Assembly (NCBI GenBank): GCA_963674735.2
Contig: CAXXQS010000001.1
Coordinates: forward strand, 2,048,001-2,112,000
From: Myxococcota bacterium
GTDB taxonomy: Bacteria > Myxococcota_A > SURF-8
DNA: 64,000 nucleotides
Reading direction: 5' to 3'
A program made the position numbers and the translations under genes. Under the pieces are notes generated by a model. It ran no database searches. It worked only from the letters and a program-made list of their open reading frames with translations, and was not told where the DNA came from. Positions 52,824 through 58,533 of this stretch are shown piece by piece (within the stretch, counting starts at the first letter, position 1; the number at the start of each line of letters is the position of its first letter).

Positions 52824-54149
52824 ATGAAAACGATCCGAACGCAAACCGATGTGGTGGTGGCCGGCTCCGGTCCCGGCGGGGCCACGGTCGCGCGTCAACT
52901 CGCCCGAGCCGGAAAGAAAGTGGTGCTGCTCGAAAAGGGACGCGAACAGCGCATGATCGGCAATCACTTCGCCGCGCTGCTTTTCGCCGACCGCCTCGGA
53001 TTGTCGTTCAGCGAAGAAGGCATGAACATCGTGCGCGCCTTCATCTCCGGCGGCTCGACCATCATGTATTGCGGCGCGGCTTCCGAACCGCCCGAGTGGT
53101 TCAACAGCCGCTACGGGATCGACCTCGCCCCCTATTGCCGCGAGACCATCGAAGAACTCAAGCTCGAACCCTTGCCCGATGAAATCGTGGGCAGCGCCGG
53201 GTTGCGCATTCTGGAAGCGGGCAACGAGCTGGGCCACGGATTTCAAAAGCTGCCCAAGTTCATTTCGCCCGAACGTTGCCGCATGCGCTGCGGCGGCACC
53301 TGCATGCTGGGCTGCCCGCACAAAGCCAAGTGGACCGCCCGCGAATACATCCAGGACATGCGCGAGGCCGGAGGCGAGTTGATTGCTCGCGCCGACGTGC
53401 AGGAGGTCATCATCGAAGACGGCGTGGCGCGAGGACTTCGCGCACTCACCCCGCACGGCCTGCTGGAAGTCGCGGCCGAGACCGTCGTCATTGCGGCGGG
53501 CGGCATCGGAACGCCGTCGATTCTGCAACGCTCGGGATTGCATGAAGCAGGACAACGCATGTTCGTCGACCCGCTACTGTTCGTCACCGGCGTCTCGCGC
53601 TTTGCGGGCACCTGCCAAGGACCGCCCATGACCGTGGGCACCTACGACTACATCGAGGAAGGCATCCTGCTATCCGATCTGATCGACCCCTGGGGGATGT
53701 GGCTGATCATGACCTTGCTGCGCAACCCCTCCAAGCTTTTGAACTTTCTGTCCTACCGCCGTCAATTGAGCCTGATGGTGAAGATCGGCGACGAACACGA
53801 GGGCTTCATCACGATGGACGGCCGCATCTCCAAGCCGCTCAGCCTACGCGATCGGCAACGCCTCAACCGCGGGGCCTCCATGGCACGTCAGATTCTCATC
53901 AAGGCGGGCTGCCGTCCCGATTCCATCATGGTCGGCCCGGTGCGCGGCGCGCATCCCGGAGCCACAGCGCGTATCGGCGATGTGGTGGACCGCAACCTGC
54001 AAACGCGCATCCCCGGCCTCTACGTGTCCGACGCCTCGGTCATCCCCGAAGCACTCGACCGCCCGGTGGTTCTCACGCTCATCAGTCTGGCCAAACGCCT
54101 TTCAGAACATCTGCTGGCAGGCGGGAAAGAAAAGATGGGGCAGACGTGA
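52824..54149 (+). CDS. GMC-family oxidoreductase with Cys cluster
   Basis: VAGSGPGG, GGST, CRMRCGGTCMLGC, AAGGIGTP, GAHPG, DASVIP. Confidence 0.88.
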   Translation: MKTIRTQTDVVVAGSGPGGATVARQLARAGKKVVLLEKGREQRMIGNHFAALLFADRLGLSFSEEGMNIVRAFISGGSTIMYCGAASEPPEWFNSRYGIDLAPYCRETIEELKLEPLPDEIVGSAGLRILEAGNELGHGFQKLPKFISPERCRMRCGGTCMLGCPHKAKWTAREYIQDMREAGGELIARADVQEVIIEDGVARGLRALTPHGLLEVAAETVVIAAGGIGTPSILQRSGLHEAGQRMFVDPLLFVTGVSRFAGTCQGPPMTVGTYDYIEEGILLSDLIDPWGMWLIMTLLRNPSKLLNFLSYRRQLSLMVKIGDEHEGFITMDGRISKPLSLRDRQRLNRGASMARQILIKAGCRPDSIMVGPVRGAHPGATARIGDVVDRNLQTRIPGLYVSDASVIPEALDRPVVLTLISLAKRLSEHLLAGGKEKMGQT

Positions 54150-54232
54150 GAGAGAGTGCCTGTTTAAGGAATGCCCCCTCACCATCTTTCAATTTGCATA
54201 TCTTGGGCATGAATGTTGTCCATTCCGCTCAT

Positions 54233-54283
54233 CCGTGTTGGAACGCGTCTCCGACGGGCTCCGGATGTTGCGTCATTCATCTT
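54233..54283 (+). repeat. REP-like repeat copy 1 (51 bp)
   Basis: GTTG + GAACGCGTC-TCC-GACGGGCTC hairpin + tail; 49/51 identical to 58483-58533. Confidence 0.85.
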
Positions 54284-54425
54284 ATTCTTTGGCAGGAACA
54301 GGGCTCTGTCCTGTGCCGCAGGTTTGTCCAACCGAGTAGGACGGGAGCCCTTCGAACGGAAGGGGTCGACAAAGTAGGGAACGGCCAACCTGAAAACGAG
54401 GCGTTCTGGTGTGTGCATACACGAA

Positions 54426-54449
54426 GATGGGCAACAAGTTGCCCATCCT
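54426..54449 (-). repeat. GTAG-type REP palindrome interrupted by the IS110 element
   Basis: GATGGGCAAC-AA-GTTGCCCATC hairpin plus CT. Joining it to AC at 55626-55627 restores CTAC (GTAG on the minus strand). Confidence 0.8.
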
Positions 54450-54463
54450 TGTATTATCCCTTT

Positions 54464-54672
54464 CAAGCGACTGTCATCGTTTGTGATGATAAGATGAAAC
54501 GACCTCCCGTAGCAAGCGGGAGGCCGTGGTGGGCGGCGAGATCGTCCCATCCTGGGGCCTGATGAGCCCGTTTTGTAGCCGGATCCGCCGTCCGTTTCGT
54601 CCGGGAAAACCCGAACAGTCGCAGGGGCCATTGTAATCGAAATGAGCCCGTATTGGCAAGGAAGGGTGCGCC
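54464..54672 (+). ncRNA. Bridge RNA (ends approximate)
   Basis: 5' hairpin at 54503-54523; target loop with CCCATCCT (54546-54553) and GTAG (54575-54578); donor loop with ACAGTCGC (54615-54622) and GCAAG (54656-54660). Each loop has an internal GGGC/GCCC stem. Confidence 0.85.
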
Positions 54673-55608
54673 ATGAAGAAATGGATCGGGATCGACGTCA
54701 GCAAAGCCGTTTTCGATGTCGCCGTCGACGGCGAAAGCACGTGCGTCCGCTACGCTTACACCAAAGCCGGCATGACACGCTTCGTCCGTTCGTTGAAGCG
54801 GATCGAGGTGGAGGGCGTCGTGATGGAAGCCACCGGCGGCTACGAACGGGAGCTGTGCAAACGTCTTCAGAAAGCGGGTTGGCCGGTGGCGGTGGTCAAT
54901 CCCCGGCGCATCCGGGATTATGCCCGCGCCGTCGGCGTGATGGCGAAAACGGATCGACTCGATGCGGGCATCATCGCACGCTACGCAGCCGCCATGCGTC
55001 CCGCACCGAACGAAACGCTCGGCGAAACCGCCCTCCTGTTAAAAGCCCTGTCTTCACGGAGGCGGCAGCTGGTCGCCATGCGCACGATGGAGAAAAACCG
55101 CACCGAACACGTGGGCGATCGGACGATCGGACAAAGCCTGCACCGCATTCTGGAGGTGATCGAACGGGAAATCGAGCGGCTGGATCGGGCCATCGCGGCG
55201 GCCATTGCATCGGATCGGGAGCGCAGCGACCGGGCCGCGCGGCTCCAAACGATGCCGGGCGTCGGCGCGTGCACGGCGAATCTTCTGGTGACGGATCTGC
55301 CGGAGCTGGGGATCTACAACCGGCGGCAGATCGCGGCGTTGATCGGCGTGGCGCCCATGAATCGGGACAGCGGAACGTTTCGGGGTAAACGCATGACCGG
55401 CGGCGGTCGTCATCGCCTGCGCACGGCGCTCTACATGCCGACGCTGGTGGCGATTCAACACAACCCGGTGATTCGCGGACACTACCAGCGGCTGGTCGGA
55501 CGCGGCAAACCGAAGATGACGGCGGTGGTGGCCTGCATGCGAAAATTGGTCCTCATTCTCAACACGATGATGCGGAAAAACGAAGCCTGGAACCCGAATT
55601 TCGCTTGA
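54673..55608 (+). CDS. IS110 recombinase/transposase
   Basis: GIDVSK, MEATG, KTDRLDA (DEDD RuvC-like), PGVG, RDSG catalytic Ser, ACMRKL. Confidence 0.96.
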   Translation: MKKWIGIDVSKAVFDVAVDGESTCVRYAYTKAGMTRFVRSLKRIEVEGVVMEATGGYERELCKRLQKAGWPVAVVNPRRIRDYARAVGVMAKTDRLDAGIIARYAAAMRPAPNETLGETALLLKALSSRRRQLVAMRTMEKNRTEHVGDRTIGQSLHRILEVIEREIERLDRAIAAAIASDRERSDRAARLQTMPGVGACTANLLVTDLPELGIYNRRQIAALIGVAPMNRDSGTFRGKRMTGGGRHRLRTALYMPTLVAIQHNPVIRGHYQRLVGRGKPKMTAVVACMRKLVLILNTMMRKNEAWNPNFA

Positions 55609-55649
55609 CACCGATAACAGTCGCTACTCACTACTCACTAATCATCATT

Positions 55650-55679
55650 CCCGTGTTGGAGCGTGTCTCCGACGGGCTC
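55650..55679 (+). repeat. REP-like repeat copy 2 (30-bp core only)
   Basis: CCCGTGTTGGAGCGTGTCTCCGACGGGCTC. Confidence 0.8.
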
Positions 55680-55695
55680 TCGCTATGCCCCGTTT

Positions 55696-56622
55696 TTAAT
55701 ATGCTTGATGAGGTTGCCTGGACATGTAAAGGATCACAAAGGACTCCATGGGTAGTTTACCGATATTCACGGCTTTTCCCCCCTTATTGCAGTTCGAATC
55801 AACGCAAAGCGATTTAGGCTCTATTGCACATCCTTCATTTCTTAGGAGAATCTGGAATTTGCAAATTAGAGGTTCGTACCCAAACGTAGAGAAAAAGAAT
55901 TCCGAGGTGTCTTCAGGAAACGCATTATATTTCCAGTAGGCTTTTTCCGAGGTAAAGCCTTCAACAGAGACATTGATCTCGGTGAATCCCATTTCCGTAC
56001 CTCTTACATGCTGAAGGCCGACTCCTTTAGGAATTCTCCAGCAATTGGTATTGTCATCCTGCACGGCAAATGAAAAAAAGACGTGTGGCTCAACATCGAA
56101 GGTGATTTCTGAAAGGTCCTGATTCAAAGGAGTTGCAAAAGGGTTCTGCGTAAAGTGGAGGGAGTTTTCCTTCAATTTATATTCCGCAGGAAAGGGAATT
56201 TTGTAACTCTGACATGTTTCCATCTCATTATTGAGATTATAGCTTGAAGGCAATTCATCCTCATCAATAACCCGAATCAACACTGCACTTTTTTCCGCAA
56301 TCCATACCCCATTTGAGGAGGTGAAATCGACTTTCGGCAATACCCCTTCAAACTTTACTCGTTTGCATCTATGTTGCTGTCCGTTCGAGATCCGAAAGGT
56401 TGCTATATCCGAATAATATGATTGGATATTCACTTTAATCGATACATATGCGCCCTCTGTTAATTCCGAGCTGAACTTCGGACACAGGTCTATCCTTCCT
56501 ACATTAACGGATTTGTTTTGGACTTCGCCCGGTCGTGGATGCCTTCCCCCACACACGATCAACAGAACGACAATCGTAGCCAGAGCGGTAACAATCAACA
56601 ACGTTCGCATAACCAATCTCAT
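55696..56622 (-). CDS. Hypothetical exported/lipo-protein, Cys-containing (AT-rich)
   Basis: N-terminal hydrophobic stretch ending LLIV-C; starts a few bases after the upstream stop. Confidence 0.65.
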   Translation of the reverse strand: MRLVMRTLLIVTALATIVVLLIVCGGRHPRPGEVQNKSVNVGRIDLCPKFSSELTEGAYVSIKVNIQSYYSDIATFRISNGQQHRCKRVKFEGVLPKVDFTSSNGVWIAEKSAVLIRVIDEDELPSSYNLNNEMETCQSYKIPFPAEYKLKENSLHFTQNPFATPLNQDLSEITFDVEPHVFFSFAVQDDNTNCWRIPKGVGLQHVRGTEMGFTEINVSVEGFTSEKAYWKYNAFPEDTSEFFFSTFGYEPLICKFQILLRNEGCAIEPKSLCVDSNCNKGGKAVNIGKLPMESFVILYMSRQPHQAY

Positions 56623-56627
56623 TTCGT

Positions 56628-58271
56628 CTACTTGCAGCTCTTTTCCCAATTGTCGATCTCTGATTGGGGAATGGGTGCGGTTTGATATATCCAGCAAATG
56701 ATCAGCTTCTCTTGCACGTCGTTCTGCAACAGGACGCTATCGATCTCCCGGGCATAGTCGTCATATATTTCGTCCTGTATCAATTGCAGGTTAGCCGTTT
56801 CTCGTTCTTCATCCGCCAACAACACCTGAATCAATCTTCGCAGCTGAACAGCAGCGTCTGTTGCATTCTTGACATTGAGCCGATTGAGGGAGAATCGTCT
56901 TTGAATAAGCTTGCGTATTCCCAACGCCTGCGCTCTATCGATTTCCTTGCAAAACTCTTTCAGCGCCTTACGGCTCTCACCGGTTGTCCCATCCTTGATG
57001 ATACGGTCGTATCGATCATTGAACTGTTTCAAATCTTTATACCCCAATTGCGGAGGATCAGGTTTCCCGGGTTTACTAGGTTCCTCAGGTTCGTCACCAT
57101 CAAGCGGTTCAAAATAGGGATCAGGTTCAGGCTTCGGGTACCTCTTTGGCTTCTCCTTGATTTCTTTGTCTTTTTCAGGATTCGGTAGATCCACGGGCGG
57201 CTCTTCATCCAGATCTAATTCATTTTCAATTCCAAAATCAATATCGCCATCTACAATTTTCTGTGGAGTATAATTTTTCGTTTCACTTTGTAGCAGCCAA
57301 ACAATGAATGGAACCAGTAAACCTATCAACATTATTGCGACTACTACTCTTTTATGCCTATCTTGGCTTTTTATAAATTTTTCAATGCTTGGATCTTCTT
57401 CTTTTTCTTCAACAACCAACAGCTGCAAAAAATAGTTGATATATTTCTGCCATGTCGGAAAATCAGACGGTTCTTCCCTGAAAGGAACGATCTTGACGCC
57501 AACATTTTTCCACCTATTGGTAATTTCTGAACTTAGATCGTTTTGATCGACAAACATAACGGCATTCAACACACCTTTGCCGCTATTTTGCGCATTTACA
57601 AAAAGCCGAAGTATTTGTTCCAGGTCGGGATCATCGATCTCGTACCCCATTATCAAACAAGGGTTATCTTGAATTAGTTTGACGGCATGCTTAAATAGTT
57701 CGGATTTTCGAACTCGATCGAACTCAGTGTTTGAAAACACGCCCTGTTTTTCATCTATTGGATGTCCATGTAAGTACAATAAGTCGACAGAGCCTTCTTT
57801 CTTTTTTGCAACCGTCGCACGTGCAGGCTCCATGACTCTCGTGCGTTTGTCATCTTCCAGAAGCGTATCGAACTGACTCGTGGTTATATACGCATCAATG
57901 GGGATTTTCTGTAACAGCTGATGACTATTTCCCGGGGAAAGATCGCTGGCGTTCGCCTTATCCCTGATTGCTTCTTTCAGACCTGTTGAGCCAATGCGCT
58001 GTTCAATCTCCTGAGCGACCGCTCTAATGTCCGTTTGTTCGAATTCATTCTTGTTTTCAACCCCGTAATCTCCAGCTCCTGAATATAATACATAATCCCA
58101 TCTGCGGTAATCTTTGGCCAACTGACCACTTACCCGGTGCGCCGCCATTGAAACTTGATGGCCAACAATAACCACAGGTTTATTGATTTTGGCACTTTGC
58201 ACCCAATTTTGCAGATCTTCTACGTAACTCGCTTCGAATGCCTTTTCCAACTTTTCGAAAGTTGCATCCAT
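56628..58271 (-). CDS. SIR2-like domain + TM helix + Pro/acidic linker + helical C-terminal domain
   Basis: HQLL..YITTSQFDTLLE, LLYLHG, LIMGYEIDDPDL (SIR2_2-like); TM VVVAIMLIGLLVPFIVWLL; PKPEPDP..PGKPDPP linker. Confidence 0.75.
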   Translation of the reverse strand: MDATFEKLEKAFEASYVEDLQNWVQSAKINKPVVIVGHQVSMAAHRVSGQLAKDYRRWDYVLYSGAGDYGVENKNEFEQTDIRAVAQEIEQRIGSTGLKEAIRDKANASDLSPGNSHQLLQKIPIDAYITTSQFDTLLEDDKRTRVMEPARATVAKKKEGSVDLLYLHGHPIDEKQGVFSNTEFDRVRKSELFKHAVKLIQDNPCLIMGYEIDDPDLEQILRLFVNAQNSGKGVLNAVMFVDQNDLSSEITNRWKNVGVKIVPFREEPSDFPTWQKYINYFLQLLVVEEKEEDPSIEKFIKSQDRHKRVVVAIMLIGLLVPFIVWLLQSETKNYTPQKIVDGDIDFGIENELDLDEEPPVDLPNPEKDKEIKEKPKRYPKPEPDPYFEPLDGDEPEEPSKPGKPDPPQLGYKDLKQFNDRYDRIIKDGTTGESRKALKEFCKEIDRAQALGIRKLIQRRFSLNRLNVKNATDAAVQLRRLIQVLLADEERETANLQLIQDEIYDDYAREIDSVLLQNDVQEKLIICWIYQTAPIPQSEIDNWEKSCK

Positions 58272-58482
58272 GATACGGCCCCGCACCTATATTTAATACA
58301 ATTTGTCTGGTGATTCTGTTTGCTTGAACTGCATAGCACGTCATAATAGGTATAATCAAGTATTTTGGTGATTTTCTTGATACGATTGATATCTTGGATT
58401 TGGGTGAGATTTTTCTACTTTTTGGGGATGGCTTTGCGCAACATATTGAGCTTTTTTCTGCTAGTCAAATGGTTCCGATCCC

Positions 58483-58533
58483 CCGTGTTGGAGCGCGTCT
58501 CCGACGGGCTCCGGATGTTGCGTCGTTCATCTT
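58483..58533 (+). repeat. REP-like repeat copy 3 (51 bp)
   Basis: Near-identical direct repeat of 54233-54283. Confidence 0.85.

What the first reader, a model, noticed from the sequence alone, without database searches (positions are those of the whole stretch)
54426..55629. IS110 element with a fully readable bridge RNA programmed for a GTAG REP
Seen: the reconstructed empty target is GCCCATC-CT-ACTC and the circle-junction donor is ACAGTCG-CT-TGTAT. The left non-coding end contains CCCATCCT (matches left target + core), GTAG (complement of CTAC), ACAGTCGC (left donor) and GCAAG (pairs CTTGT with one G:T), in the expected order and inside two stem-loops. Established: IS621-type bridge recombinases use this architecture and a CT core. 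Inference: an intact, compact (311 aa) RNA-guided recombinase ortholog with its own target specificity.
Basis: partly seen in the sequence, partly recalled or inferred. Interest (0 to 1): 0.8.

Follow-up and report, generated by a model that had tools for sequence, protein, structure and literature searches.

The report
REP-targeting IS110 bridge-RNA insertion sequence
This is an intact jumping gene of the IS110 family whose own guide ("bridge") RNA spells out the short genomic repeat it inserts into, a clean but ordinary example of a mechanism described in 2024.

Summary
The element proper is window 54450-55625 (1176 bp). Positions 54426-54449 are the target REP hairpin plus the CT core, not part of the IS.

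- **Copies and targets:** The genome holds 8 copies, 100% identical, each inserted at GATGGGCAACAAGTTGCCCATC-CT | AC. Sixteen empty GCCCATCCTAC sites remain, all in the same REP hairpin.
- **Recombinase:** The 311-aa ORF has both IS110 Pfam domains and all five IS621 catalytic residues.
- **Guides:** The left end carries the four guides and both handshake guides with the spacing published for IS621.
- **Covariation:** In 66 orthologous elements the target guides track the flanks. The left guide matches 8/8 in 51 and the right guide 4/4 in 63, and 0 of 10000 shuffled pairings reach the observed match.
- **RNA structure:** The stems covary. A covariance model built without this element scores it 123.6 bits.
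- **Promoter:** Joining the ends would create TTGACA-17 nt-TATTAT.
- **Not shown:** the RNA itself, the circle and activity. No RNA run was available.

Verdict: a new member of a known kind. This scan has noted the same kind on other DNA many times. One unexplained extra is a lineage-limited 5' leader complementary to the left donor guide.

The parts
54426..54447 (+). REP-A hairpin of the host (GATGGGCAAC-AA-GTTGCCCATC). Its 3' arm holds the left target GCCCATC (54441-54447). It is target DNA, not part of the IS.
   Evidence: The same 24 nt precede all 8 copies. The genome has 37 such hairpin places. It folds at -14.1 kcal/mol, z -5.4. With the tail CTTGTATTAT it is called terminator-like.
54448..54449 (+). 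Left CT core dinucleotide
   Evidence: CT lies at both junctions in 8 of 8 copies. The CT core is described for IS621 in PMC11208160 and PMC11208158.
54450..54672 (+). Left end (LE), 223 nt, non-coding. It begins with the right donor TGTAT (54450-54454), followed by the short inverted-repeat half TAT (54455-54457).
   Evidence: TGTAT begins the LE in 69 of 69 aligned elements.
54452..54457 (+). -10 box TATTAT of the junction promoter. The predicted transcription start is near 54464-54466 (inferred).
   Evidence: A TAT(A/C/T/G)(T/A)T hexamer sits at this place in 67 of 67 elements. In the resident state it is paired only with a weak TGGGCA -35, 9 of 12 matches.
54466..54474 (+). Leader AGCGACTGT, the reverse complement of the right-end terminus ACAGTCGCT and complementary to the left donor guide. 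Function unknown.
   Evidence: The minimum-energy fold of the LE pairs it with the left donor guide. A full 8-bp match occurs in 4 of 69 elements against 0.6% of shuffles.
54503..54523 (+). 5' stem-loop of the bridge RNA (CCUCCCGU / GCGGGAGG, loop AGCAA)
   Evidence: Folds. The helix covaries in 5 of 5 pairs across orthologues.
54529..54668 (+). Bridge RNA core: the target-binding loop module (about 54530-54595), a linker, and the donor-binding loop module (54610-54666)
   Evidence: Covariance model R1, built from 61 orthologues without this element, matches here full length at 123.6 bits, E 8.3e-34.
54545..54553 (+). Left target guide U-CCCAUCCU. Its last 8 nt equal the top-strand left target plus core.
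   Evidence: This guide equals the flank 8/8 in 51 of 66 elements and 7/8 in 10.
54575..54580 (+). Right target guide GUAG (54575-54578), pairing with CTAC, and the handshake guide CC (54579-54580), whose first C can pair with donor G7
   Evidence: This guide matches core plus right target 4/4 in 63 of 66 elements. Variant pairs are TCAG/CTGA, AGAG/CTCT, AAAG/CTTT and GCAG/CTGC. The first handshake position is C in 69 of 69.
54615..54623 (+). Left donor guide ACAGUCGC (8 nt) followed by A
   Evidence: It equals the right-end terminus ACAGTCG plus C. IS621 has the same layout, A123-C130 then A131. The 8 nt are exact in 57 of 69 elements.
54652..54662 (+). Right donor guide AU / UG (looped out) / G (G:T) / CAAG, pairing with CT-TGTAT, and the handshake guide GA (54661-54662)
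   Evidence: The scheme matches IS621 A157-U158, U159-U160 flipped out, G161:dT12, C162-G165 and handshake 166-167. CAAG is present in 69 of 69 elements and the preceding G in 67 of 69.
54673..55608 (+). Recombinase gene, 311 aa (RuvC-like DEDD domain, coiled coil, Tnp domain with the catalytic Ser)
   Evidence: Pfam PF01548 at 3e-22 and PF02371 at 8.3e-19. PDB matches: ISCro4 3.2e-37 and IS621 1.3e-34. D8, E52, D94, D97 and S233 are invariant.
55605..55610 (+). -35 box TTGACA of the junction promoter, overlapping the stop codon
   Evidence: After end joining it would lie 17 nt from the -10 (15 nt of the right end plus 2 nt of the LE). TTGAnn sits at this place in 65 of 67 elements.
55614..55625 (+). 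Right-end terminus: short inverted-repeat half ATA (55614-55616), left donor ACAGTCG (55617-55623) and CT core (55624-55625)
   Evidence: ACAGTCGCT is found in 67 of 69 elements. The ATA/TAT short inverted repeat of IS110-group donors is described in PMC11208160.
55626..55627 (+). Right target AC (host DNA)
   Evidence: AC follows the element in 8 of 8 copies. The next base is T in 7 and G in 1.

Best explanation
Window 54450-55625 is one of eight identical copies of an IS110-group insertion sequence that moves by bridge-RNA-guided recombination.

Inferred cycle, by homology with IS621:
1. Excision joins the right end to the left end.
2. This places TTGACA 17 nt from TATTAT and drives transcription of a roughly 200-nt RNA from the left end.
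3. A recombinase tetramer (DEDD plus Ser233) binds two modules of that RNA.
4. [quoted passage not shown]
5. [quoted passage not shown]
6. Strand exchange at the CT cores inserts the circle just after the 3' arm of a REP hairpin.
7. In the resident copy, that hairpin plus the U-rich element terminus probably insulates the element from read-through.

Shown here: the anatomy, copy number, target use, guide-target covariation, stem covariation and catalytic residues. Inferred only: transcription, RNA binding, circle formation and catalysis.
For: **Protein.** Pfam gives DEDD_Tnp_IS110 at 3e-22 and Transposase_20 at 8.3e-19. The PDB matches are ISCro4 at 3.2e-37 and IS621 at 1.3e-34. D8, E52, D94, D97 and S233 align to IS621 D11, E60, D102, D105 and S241 and are invariant in 11 of 11 aligned relatives.

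**Copies.** There are 8 copies, 1176 of 1176 bases identical, with no fragments and no other IS110 paralogue in the genome. All 8 lie at the same REP junction, and their flanks differ beyond the repeat.

**Targets.** There are 16 empty GCCCATCCTAC sites against about 2.5 expected by chance, all in the hairpin context.

**Guide-target covariation.**
- The G008 relative (62% aa identity, 8 copies) inserts at GCCCGAC-CT-AC and carries CCCGACCU.
- Across 66 elements, the left target guide matches 8/8 in 51 and the right target guide 4/4 in 63.
- Five different right-guide/right-target pairs are seen.
- 0 of 10000 shuffled pairings reach the observed match.

**RNA structure.** Of 30 pairs, 95.1% of cells are paired against 83.6% in shuffles. 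Nineteen pairs show compensatory changes, 0 of 500 shuffles reach the observed value, and slid controls pair at most 50.9%.

**Leave-out covariance model.** It scores this element 123.6 bits (E 8.3e-34). It gives exactly 8 hits in the genome. It gives full-length hits of 32-84 bits just upstream of the IS110 ORFs of more distant elements L009-L016, L024 and L031 (38-46% aa identity); L018 and L035 also scored.

**Layout.** Guide spacing equals the published IS621 layout.

**Promoter.** The split promoter is conserved in 65 of 67 elements.
Against: - No direct evidence was available for the RNA, for a circular form or for recombination.
- The first position of the 9-nt left target guide (U54545) does not match the target (G54441), so only 8 nt pair.
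- The second handshake positions do not track their partners. The donor-loop handshake position 2 pairs with target position 6 in only 22 of 69 elements.
- The donor is invariant in the clade (TGTAT 69 of 69, ACAGTCGCT 67 of 69). The donor guides are therefore consistent with the model but not tested by covariation here.
- The unconstrained fold of the whole left end pairs the leader 54467-54474 with the left donor guide and breaks the outer stem of the donor loop. A local hairpin GGG 54603-54605 / CCC 54610-54612 competes for the same CCC.
- Identical copies show recent spread, not present activity.
Confidence: 0.9

Rival explanations
1. The left-end motifs act as DNA, as subterminal binding sites or repeats read by the transposase, and target choice is made by the protein. 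No guide RNA is involved.
For: The motifs are copies or complements of the ends and the target, which is what subterminal repeats look like. A 9-nt inverted copy of the right-end terminus also lies at 54466-54474. No RNA data were available.
Against: The stems around the motifs keep pairing through compensatory changes in 19 of 30 pairs, which DNA binding sites do not need. The right target guide is the reverse complement of the target while the left target guide is its direct copy, which is the two-strand RNA pairing scheme solved for the homologue IS621. The protein is homologous to IS621 at E 1.3e-34.
Confidence: 0.04
2. The element is a fossil. The eight identical copies arose by duplication or gene conversion of REP-flanked segments, not by transposition, and the element no longer moves.
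For: Two copies (L001, L002) share a further 54 nt of right flank. No circle junction was available to inspect.
Against: Six of the eight copies have unrelated flanks immediately beyond the 24-nt REP on the left and the 2-3 nt on the right. The ORF is intact with all catalytic residues. Identity is 100% over 1176 bp in all 8 copies. The shared 54 nt is itself a repeat unit (REP-B, 38 copies).
Confidence: 0.05
3. The complementarity between left-end loops and junctions is chance in a GC-rich, repeat-rich region.
For: Each motif is short (4-9 nt).
Against: The shuffled-pairing control reaches the observed match 0 times in 10000 for both target guides. A model built from other elements finds this RNA at E 8.3e-34, and the next hit in the window scores 9 bits.
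Confidence: 0.01

Closest known systems
IS621 of Escherichia coli and its 177-nt bridge RNA (Durrant 2024, PMC11208160; Hiraizumi 2024, PMC11208158; passages read)
   Same: - Domain order and all five catalytic residues.
- CT core.
- RNA in the left end with a 5' stem-loop plus target-binding and donor-binding loop modules.
- Left target guide as a direct copy of the left target plus core.
- A 4-nt right target guide GUAG for CT-AC.
- An 8-nt left donor guide followed by A.
- The right donor guide laid out as AU / two looped-out nt / G:T / CAAG for CT-TGTAT.
- Handshake dinucleotides directly 3' of the right target and right donor guides.
- An ATA...TAT short inverted repeat.
- A junction promoter.
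- A REP target.
   Different: - The proteins are distant homologues (phmmer E 1.3e-34 over residues 4-300; I computed no identity figure).
- 311 aa against 326 aa.
- Left target CCCATC instead of (A)TCAGGC.
- Donor positions 6-7 are CG instead of AT, with a matching left donor guide.
- A roughly 38-nt leader lies before the 5' stem-loop if the start is as predicted, and it includes an 8-9-nt complement of the left donor guide.
- I could not obtain the IS621 RNA sequence, so this comparison rests on the papers' numbered positions, not on an alignment.
ISCro4 (PDB 9t56), a bridge recombinase used for human genome rearrangement (mentioned in PMC13626964)
   Same: It is the best solved-structure match (3.2e-37) and has the same domains.
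   Different: 341-aa chain. Its RNA and targets were not compared here.
ISPpu10 / ISPpu9 of Pseudomonas putida (preprint 10.64898/2026.03.19.712850, abstract and section 6 read; PMC12288879, listing only)
   Same: It inserts beside a REP hairpin whose 3' arm is the left target. The hairpin plus the U-rich element terminus looks like a terminator. The left target lies in a hairpin arm in 39 of 57 distinct flanks of this clade.
   Different: ISPpu10 is reported to lack the 5' stem-loop, which this element has. Whether the hairpin is required here is untested.
IS1111 group / seekRNA elements (described in PMC11208160)
   Same: DEDD/Ser recombinase and RNA-guided target choice.
   Different: IS1111 elements have the RNA in a long right end and subterminal inverted repeats of 7-17 bp. 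Here the right end is 17 nt past the stop codon and the RNA is in the left end.

Membership tests
IS110 group of the IS110 family (bridge recombinases, IS621 type) | RuvC-like DEDD domain (PF01548) with the four acidic residues | tested here: met
   PF01548 at 3e-22 over residues 5-146. D8, E52, D94 and D97 align to IS621 D11, E60, D102 and D105 and are invariant in alignment A1.
IS110 group of the IS110 family (bridge recombinases, IS621 type) | Tnp domain (PF02371) with the catalytic serine followed by glycine | tested here: met
   PF02371 at 8.3e-19 over residues 189-272. S233-G234 align to IS621 S241-G242.
IS110 group of the IS110 family (bridge recombinases, IS621 type) | CT core dinucleotide at both element boundaries, with no long terminal inverted repeats | tested here: met
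   CT lies at 54448-54449 and 55624-55625 in 8 of 8 copies. Only the ATA/TAT short inverted repeat flanks the donor.
IS110 group of the IS110 family (bridge recombinases, IS621 type) | Long non-coding left end upstream of the gene and a short right end | tested here: met
   The left end is 223 nt (54450-54672). The right end is 17 nt after the stop codon (55609-55625).
IS110 group of the IS110 family (bridge recombinases, IS621 type) | [quoted passage not shown] | tested here: met
   RNAalifold on 64 sequences. Of 30 pairs, 19 show compensatory change and 0 of 500 shuffles reach the observed value. The leave-out covariance model scores 123.6 bits.
IS110 group of the IS110 family (bridge recombinases, IS621 type) | First internal loop carries left and right target guides that match the target and covary with it | tested here: met
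   8 of 8 own copies match. Across 66 orthologues, the left guide matches 8/8 in 51 and the right guide 4/4 in 63, with 0 of 10000 shuffled pairings reaching this.
IS110 group of the IS110 family (bridge recombinases, IS621 type) | Second internal loop carries left and right donor guides that match the joined right-end/left-end sequence | tested here: met
   ACAGUCGC and AU-UG-G-CAAG fit ACAGTCG-CT-TGTAT in the IS621 scheme. The donor is invariant in the clade, so covariation could not be tested.
IS110 group of the IS110 family (bridge recombinases, IS621 type) | Sigma-70 promoter reconstituted across the right-end/left-end junction | tested here: met
   TTGACA (55605-55610), 17 nt, then TATTAT (54452-54457). 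The arrangement is conserved in 65 of 67 elements. This is sequence evidence only.
IS110 group of the IS110 family (bridge recombinases, IS621 type) | The RNA is made and bound by the recombinase, and a circular intermediate forms | not testable with these tools
   This needs RNA-seq, junction PCR or a binding assay on the organism or on cloned parts.
IS1111 group (seekRNA type) | Guide RNA in a long right end and subterminal inverted repeats of 7-17 bp | tested here: not met
   The right end is 17 nt and the RNA model matches the left end. The 9-nt inverted copy at 54466-54474 is present in only 3-4 of 69 relatives.
Any Rfam family | A match at or near a family's gathering score | tested here: not met
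   The only match was sX15 on the minus strand at 23.5 bits against a gathering score of 55, E 0.35. No Rfam 15 family matched this RNA.

The most novel reading that the evidence does not exclude
The first 8-9 nt of the predicted bridge RNA (54466-54474, AGCGACUGU) form an anti-guide that masks the left donor guide. The RNA would then be made in a self-inhibited form, and donor binding (or the choice between excision and insertion) would be gated by opening this duplex.

In favour:
- The match is perfect here, and 0 of 13800 shuffles gave 9 of 9.
- It sits at the same offset in the two nearest host-family relatives.
- Both substitutions seen there keep RNA pairing through G:U, while one of them destroys the invariant core T of a DNA-level pseudo-donor site.

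Against:
- Only 4 of 69 elements have it.
- The three that share the offset also share the whole first 25 nt, so common descent may explain it.
Probability: 0.12. Interest if true: 0.5.

Novelty: new member of a known kind. Interest (0 to 1): 0.27.

Why it matters
It adds a well-documented natural bridge-recombinase and RNA pair, with its genomic target set: 8 occupied sites and 16 exact empty sites. It belongs to a clade whose nearest listed homologues are mostly 311 aa and whose donor is fixed (ACAGTCG-CT-TGTAT). At least 24 different left target guides and 5 right target guides occur naturally in that clade. That natural series is a ready-made table of tolerated target reprogramming for one scaffold.

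For annotating this genome, it explains a 1.2-kb repeat that breaks short-read assemblies, and it identifies REP-A as its landing site.

It does not change the understanding of the mechanism.

Tried and rejected
- **Rfam.** No family matched. The suggested alignment to existing bridge-RNA models could not be done with Rfam, so I built a model from orthologues instead.
- **The look-up of encoding contigs.** DNA around the closest metagenome homologues (P0002 at 64% identity, P0007, P0013) was therefore not seen.
- **The look-up of sequencing runs.** No RNA holder was listed, so expression could not be examined.
- **Read laying.** All three runs are contigs from one study, possibly the source of the assembly. 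No joint across the ends and no empty-site form was listed. Contigs cannot show rare forms, so this says nothing either way.
- **Direct alignment with the IS621 RNA.** I could not obtain an IS621 locus. A blastn of the element against E. coli genomes gave only a weak hit (E 4). That hit lies in a 315-bp IS110-family transposase CDS, just downstream of a CDS annotated as an incomplete transposase, and is not IS621. The IS621 comparison therefore rests on numbered positions in the papers. The full 14-nt IS621 donor string is my recollection and was not found in the text, so I use only the positions that the text gives.
- **Extended right target guide.** The base 5' of GUAG is U and the third right-target base is T in 7 of 8 copies, so there is no pairing. 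Empty sites have T in 9 of 16, so I claim no preference.
- **Second handshake positions.** They do not covary.
- **Pseudo-donor reading of 54466-54474.** The relative L022 has CC instead of CT at the would-be core, which speaks against a DNA-level role.
- **Literature string search.** The search covered main texts only. The 14-nt donor and the 22-nt REP string occur in no paper, and the listed hits for the 11-mer and 9-mer are unrelated primers and the like. Supplementary tables of the IS110 surveys were closed and may list this element or its clade.
- **Rows dropped.** Of the 80 metagenome loci, 16 were left out of the guide analysis. They had fewer than 250 nt upstream, or the inferred start was not ATG. 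Three of the 69 aligned elements lacked a usable right flank.
Full report
**What is there.** Reading 54000-56100 and the ORF list shows a 311-aa ORF at 54673-55608. A 223-nt non-coding stretch precedes it, and 17 nt follow the stop codon.

A search of the window's own genome found 8 places with 100% identity. In a script, blastn gave 8 full-length matches, 1176 of 1176 bases identical, and no fragments. tblastn with the protein gave only those 8 places, so there is no other IS110-family paralogue.

Lining up the flanks fixes the ends. Every copy is preceded by GATGGGCAACAAGTTGCCCATC-CT and begins TGTAT. Every copy ends ACAGTCG-CT and is followed by AC, then T in 7 copies and G in 1. The IS is therefore 54450-55625, counting one CT. 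The finding's start, 54426, is the first base of the host repeat.

**The target.**
- The restored site GCCCATCCTAC occurs 16 more times, against about 2.5 expected for an 11-mer. Every time it is the 3' arm and tail of the hairpin GATGGGCAAC-NN-GTTGCCCATC.
- Allowing 2 substitutions, the genome has 37 such hairpins. Read on both strands, 22 arms are followed by CTAC and 8 by CTTG, the latter being the IS copies.
- The 'GTAG REP' of the title is this repeat read on the other strand.
- The hairpin folds well (-14.1 kcal/mol, z -5.4). With the element's first bases (CTTGTATTAT) it is called terminator-like by the simple scan. That scan found no more sites than in shuffles, 2 against 1.6.
- A preprint on ISPpu10 reports that such a target hairpin plus element terminus terminates read-through and that the hairpin is needed for targeting (abstract and section 6 read). 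For this element that is an inference.

**The protein.**
- Pfam gives DEDD_Tnp_IS110 (3e-22) and Transposase_20 (8.3e-19).
- The only solved relatives are ISCro4 (3.2e-37) and IS621 (1.3e-34).
- In the printed alignment, D8, E52, D94, D97 and S233-G234 fall on IS621 D11, E60, D102, D105 and S241-G242, the residues whose mutation abolishes recombination.
- They are invariant in an alignment with 10 relatives.

**The RNA, compared with the published IS621 layout.** Durrant et al. state two pairing rules. [quoted passage not shown] Hiraizumi et al. give the positions:
- left target guide, 9 nt;
- right target guide G77-G80, with handshake guides at 81-82;
- left donor guide A123-C130, followed by A131;
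- right donor guide A157-U158, then U159-U160 flipped out, G161 in a G:T pair, and C162-G165, with handshake guides at 166-167.

Here the features are:
- left target guide U-CCCAUCCU, 54545-54553 (8 of 9 match);
- right target guide GUAG, 54575-54578, preceded by GU plus 3 nt as in IS621;
- handshake CC, 54579-54580, whose first C can pair with donor G7;
- left donor guide ACAGUCGC plus A, 54615-54623;
- GU linker, then AU / UG / G / CAAG at 54652-54660;
- handshake GA, 54661-54662, which can pair with target C7 and T6.

The right target AC, the right target guide and the right donor TGTAT are the same as those the papers give for IS621. The left target and donor positions 6-7 differ, and the guides differ with them.

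**Comparative test.** The nearest homologues in the large protein collection are 64-62% identical. Related genomes hold orthologues at 62% (G008, 8 copies), 59% (G001), 57% (G004) and 54% (G009).

Their junctions show the following:
- G008 and G009 elements insert at (G/A)CCCGAC-CT-AC and carry CCCGACCU.
- The G001 element inserts at GCCCATC-CT-AC and carries CCCAUCCU.
- The G004 element carries UCCGACCU, next to REPs with GTCCGAC arms, and its single copy sits in a variant arm (6 of 8 match).

A metagenome scan added 80 loci, of which 64 had enough upstream sequence. With the 5 genomic elements, 69 left ends were aligned, and 66 of these had both flanks. Results:
- The 8-nt left target guide equals the flank 8/8 in 51, 7/8 in 10, and less in 5.
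- The right target guide is complementary 4/4 in 63 and 3/4 in 3.
- The pairs seen are GUAG/CTAC, UCAG/CTGA, AGAG/CTCT, AAAG/CTTT and GCAG/CTGC.
- On the 35 distinct sets, non-core matches were 186 of 210 for the left target and 67 of 70 for the right target. Shuffled pairings gave means of 118.7 and 32.7 and never reached the observed values (0 of 10000).

**Structure.**
- RNAalifold on 64 distinct sequences predicts the 5' stem-loop and two modules with internal loops.
- I removed two predicted pairs that lie inside the donor guides and counted the remaining 30 pairs. Of cells, 95.1% were paired (shuffles 83.6%). Nineteen pairs had changes on both sides (shuffles 12.5). The covariation score was 0.331 (shuffles 0.137). 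None of 500 shuffles reached these values, and slid partners paired at most 50.9%.
- A covariance model built from 61 orthologues, leaving out this element and its two nearest relatives, matches the window once at 54529-54668, full length, at 123.6 bits and E 8.3e-34. The next hit scores 9 bits.
- In the whole genome it finds exactly the 8 copies, so there are no orphan RNAs.
- It also finds full-length matches of 32-84 bits just upstream of the IS110 ORFs of more distant elements L009-L016, L024 and L031 (38-46% protein identity); L018 and L035 also scored.

**Promoter.**
- TTGACA (55605-55610, overlapping the stop codon) would lie 17 nt from TATTAT (54452-54457) once the ends are joined.
- The same arrangement (TTGAnn, 17 nt, TATNNT) holds in 65 of 67 elements.
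- In the resident copy the REP supplies only TGGGCA at an 18-nt spacing, 9 of 12 matches. This fits the weak resident expression reported for IS621 (abstract of PMC13626964).
- ATA and TAT flank the 14-nt donor, the short inverted repeat described for IS110-group donors.

**What does not fit, or is open.**
- The donor is invariant across the clade, so the donor guides are consistent with the model but not tested by covariation.
- The second handshake positions do not follow their partners.
- The unconstrained fold of the whole left end (-93.9 kcal/mol, z -3.5) pairs the leader GCGACUGU (54467-54474) with the left donor guide instead of forming the outer stem of the donor loop.
- That leader is a perfect 9-nt inverted copy of the right-end terminus, and no shuffle gave 9 of 9. 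It recurs at the same offset only in the G001 and G004 elements, with one more case elsewhere: 4 of 69 against 0.6% of shuffles.
- The two substitutions seen in those relatives keep RNA pairing through G:U. One of them removes the core T that a DNA site would need. I treat this as an unexplained, lineage-limited feature.

**Comparison and novelty.** All sequence-level features that define the IS110 group are met, and those of the IS1111 group are not. The element is a new member of a known kind. This scan has already noted IS110 elements with readable guides against REPs on many other genomes: 490 notes in at least 280 genomes hold the search words.

No paper in the searchable library holds the donor or REP strings. 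Supplements were closed.

**Verdict.** I put 0.9 on this being a bridge-RNA-guided IS that was recently active. Interest is modest.

Noticed in passing
window 54240-54261, 55658-55679, 58490-58511: A second repeat family, REP-B (GGAGCGYGTCTCCGACGGGCTC), has 38 copies in the genome at up to 2 substitutions. It often lies a few tens of bases from REP-A. Three same-strand copies bracket the IS and the AT-rich two-gene block to its right.
   Followed up: partly
window 54466-54474: The leader AGCGACTGT is a perfect inverted copy of the right-end terminus and pairs with the left donor guide in the minimum-energy fold. It is present at the same offset only in the G001 and G004 relatives.
   Followed up: partly
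L001 and L002 (G000:C1:2100940-2105135 and C1:314847-319042), right flanks: Two of the eight copies share 54 nt of right flank (ACTCACTACTCAC..., ending in REP-B). They sit in a longer composite repeat unit, not in unique DNA.
   Followed up: no
metagenome loci such as L047, L058, L067, L075, L077, L089, L098, L100: A subclade with right target guide UCAG inserts at ...CCTGCCC-CT-GAGCG(C/T)AGTCGAA(T/G)GG, a different conserved repeat. There the left target is mostly not in a hairpin arm.
   Followed up: no
L009, just downstream of the ORF (right end): In this Gemmatimonadales contig the right-end terminus ACAGTCGCT is followed directly by sequence matching the element's own left end. This is either a head-to-tail tandem or an assembled end-to-end junction.
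   Followed up: no
L024, L031, L035 (G052:C1:165084-174951): Several copies of a 41%-identical IS110 relative lie within about 10 kb. The read-through protein matches carry one TAA, and the RNA model hits upstream of the L024, L031 and L035 matches.
   Followed up: no
window 55696-58286, minus strand: Two long minus-strand ORFs (333 and 552 aa) lie immediately right of the IS. I only saw them in the ORF list. Another first-reader note calls this a SIR2-like cassette.
   Followed up: no
L119 (E. coli D8, NZ_CP010151.1 3649159-3653319): The only E. coli DNA hit is a weak one (E 4). It lies in a 315-bp CDS annotated as IS110-family transposase, just downstream of a CDS annotated as an incomplete transposase and a group II intron reverse transcriptase gene. 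It is unrelated to IS621.
   Followed up: no
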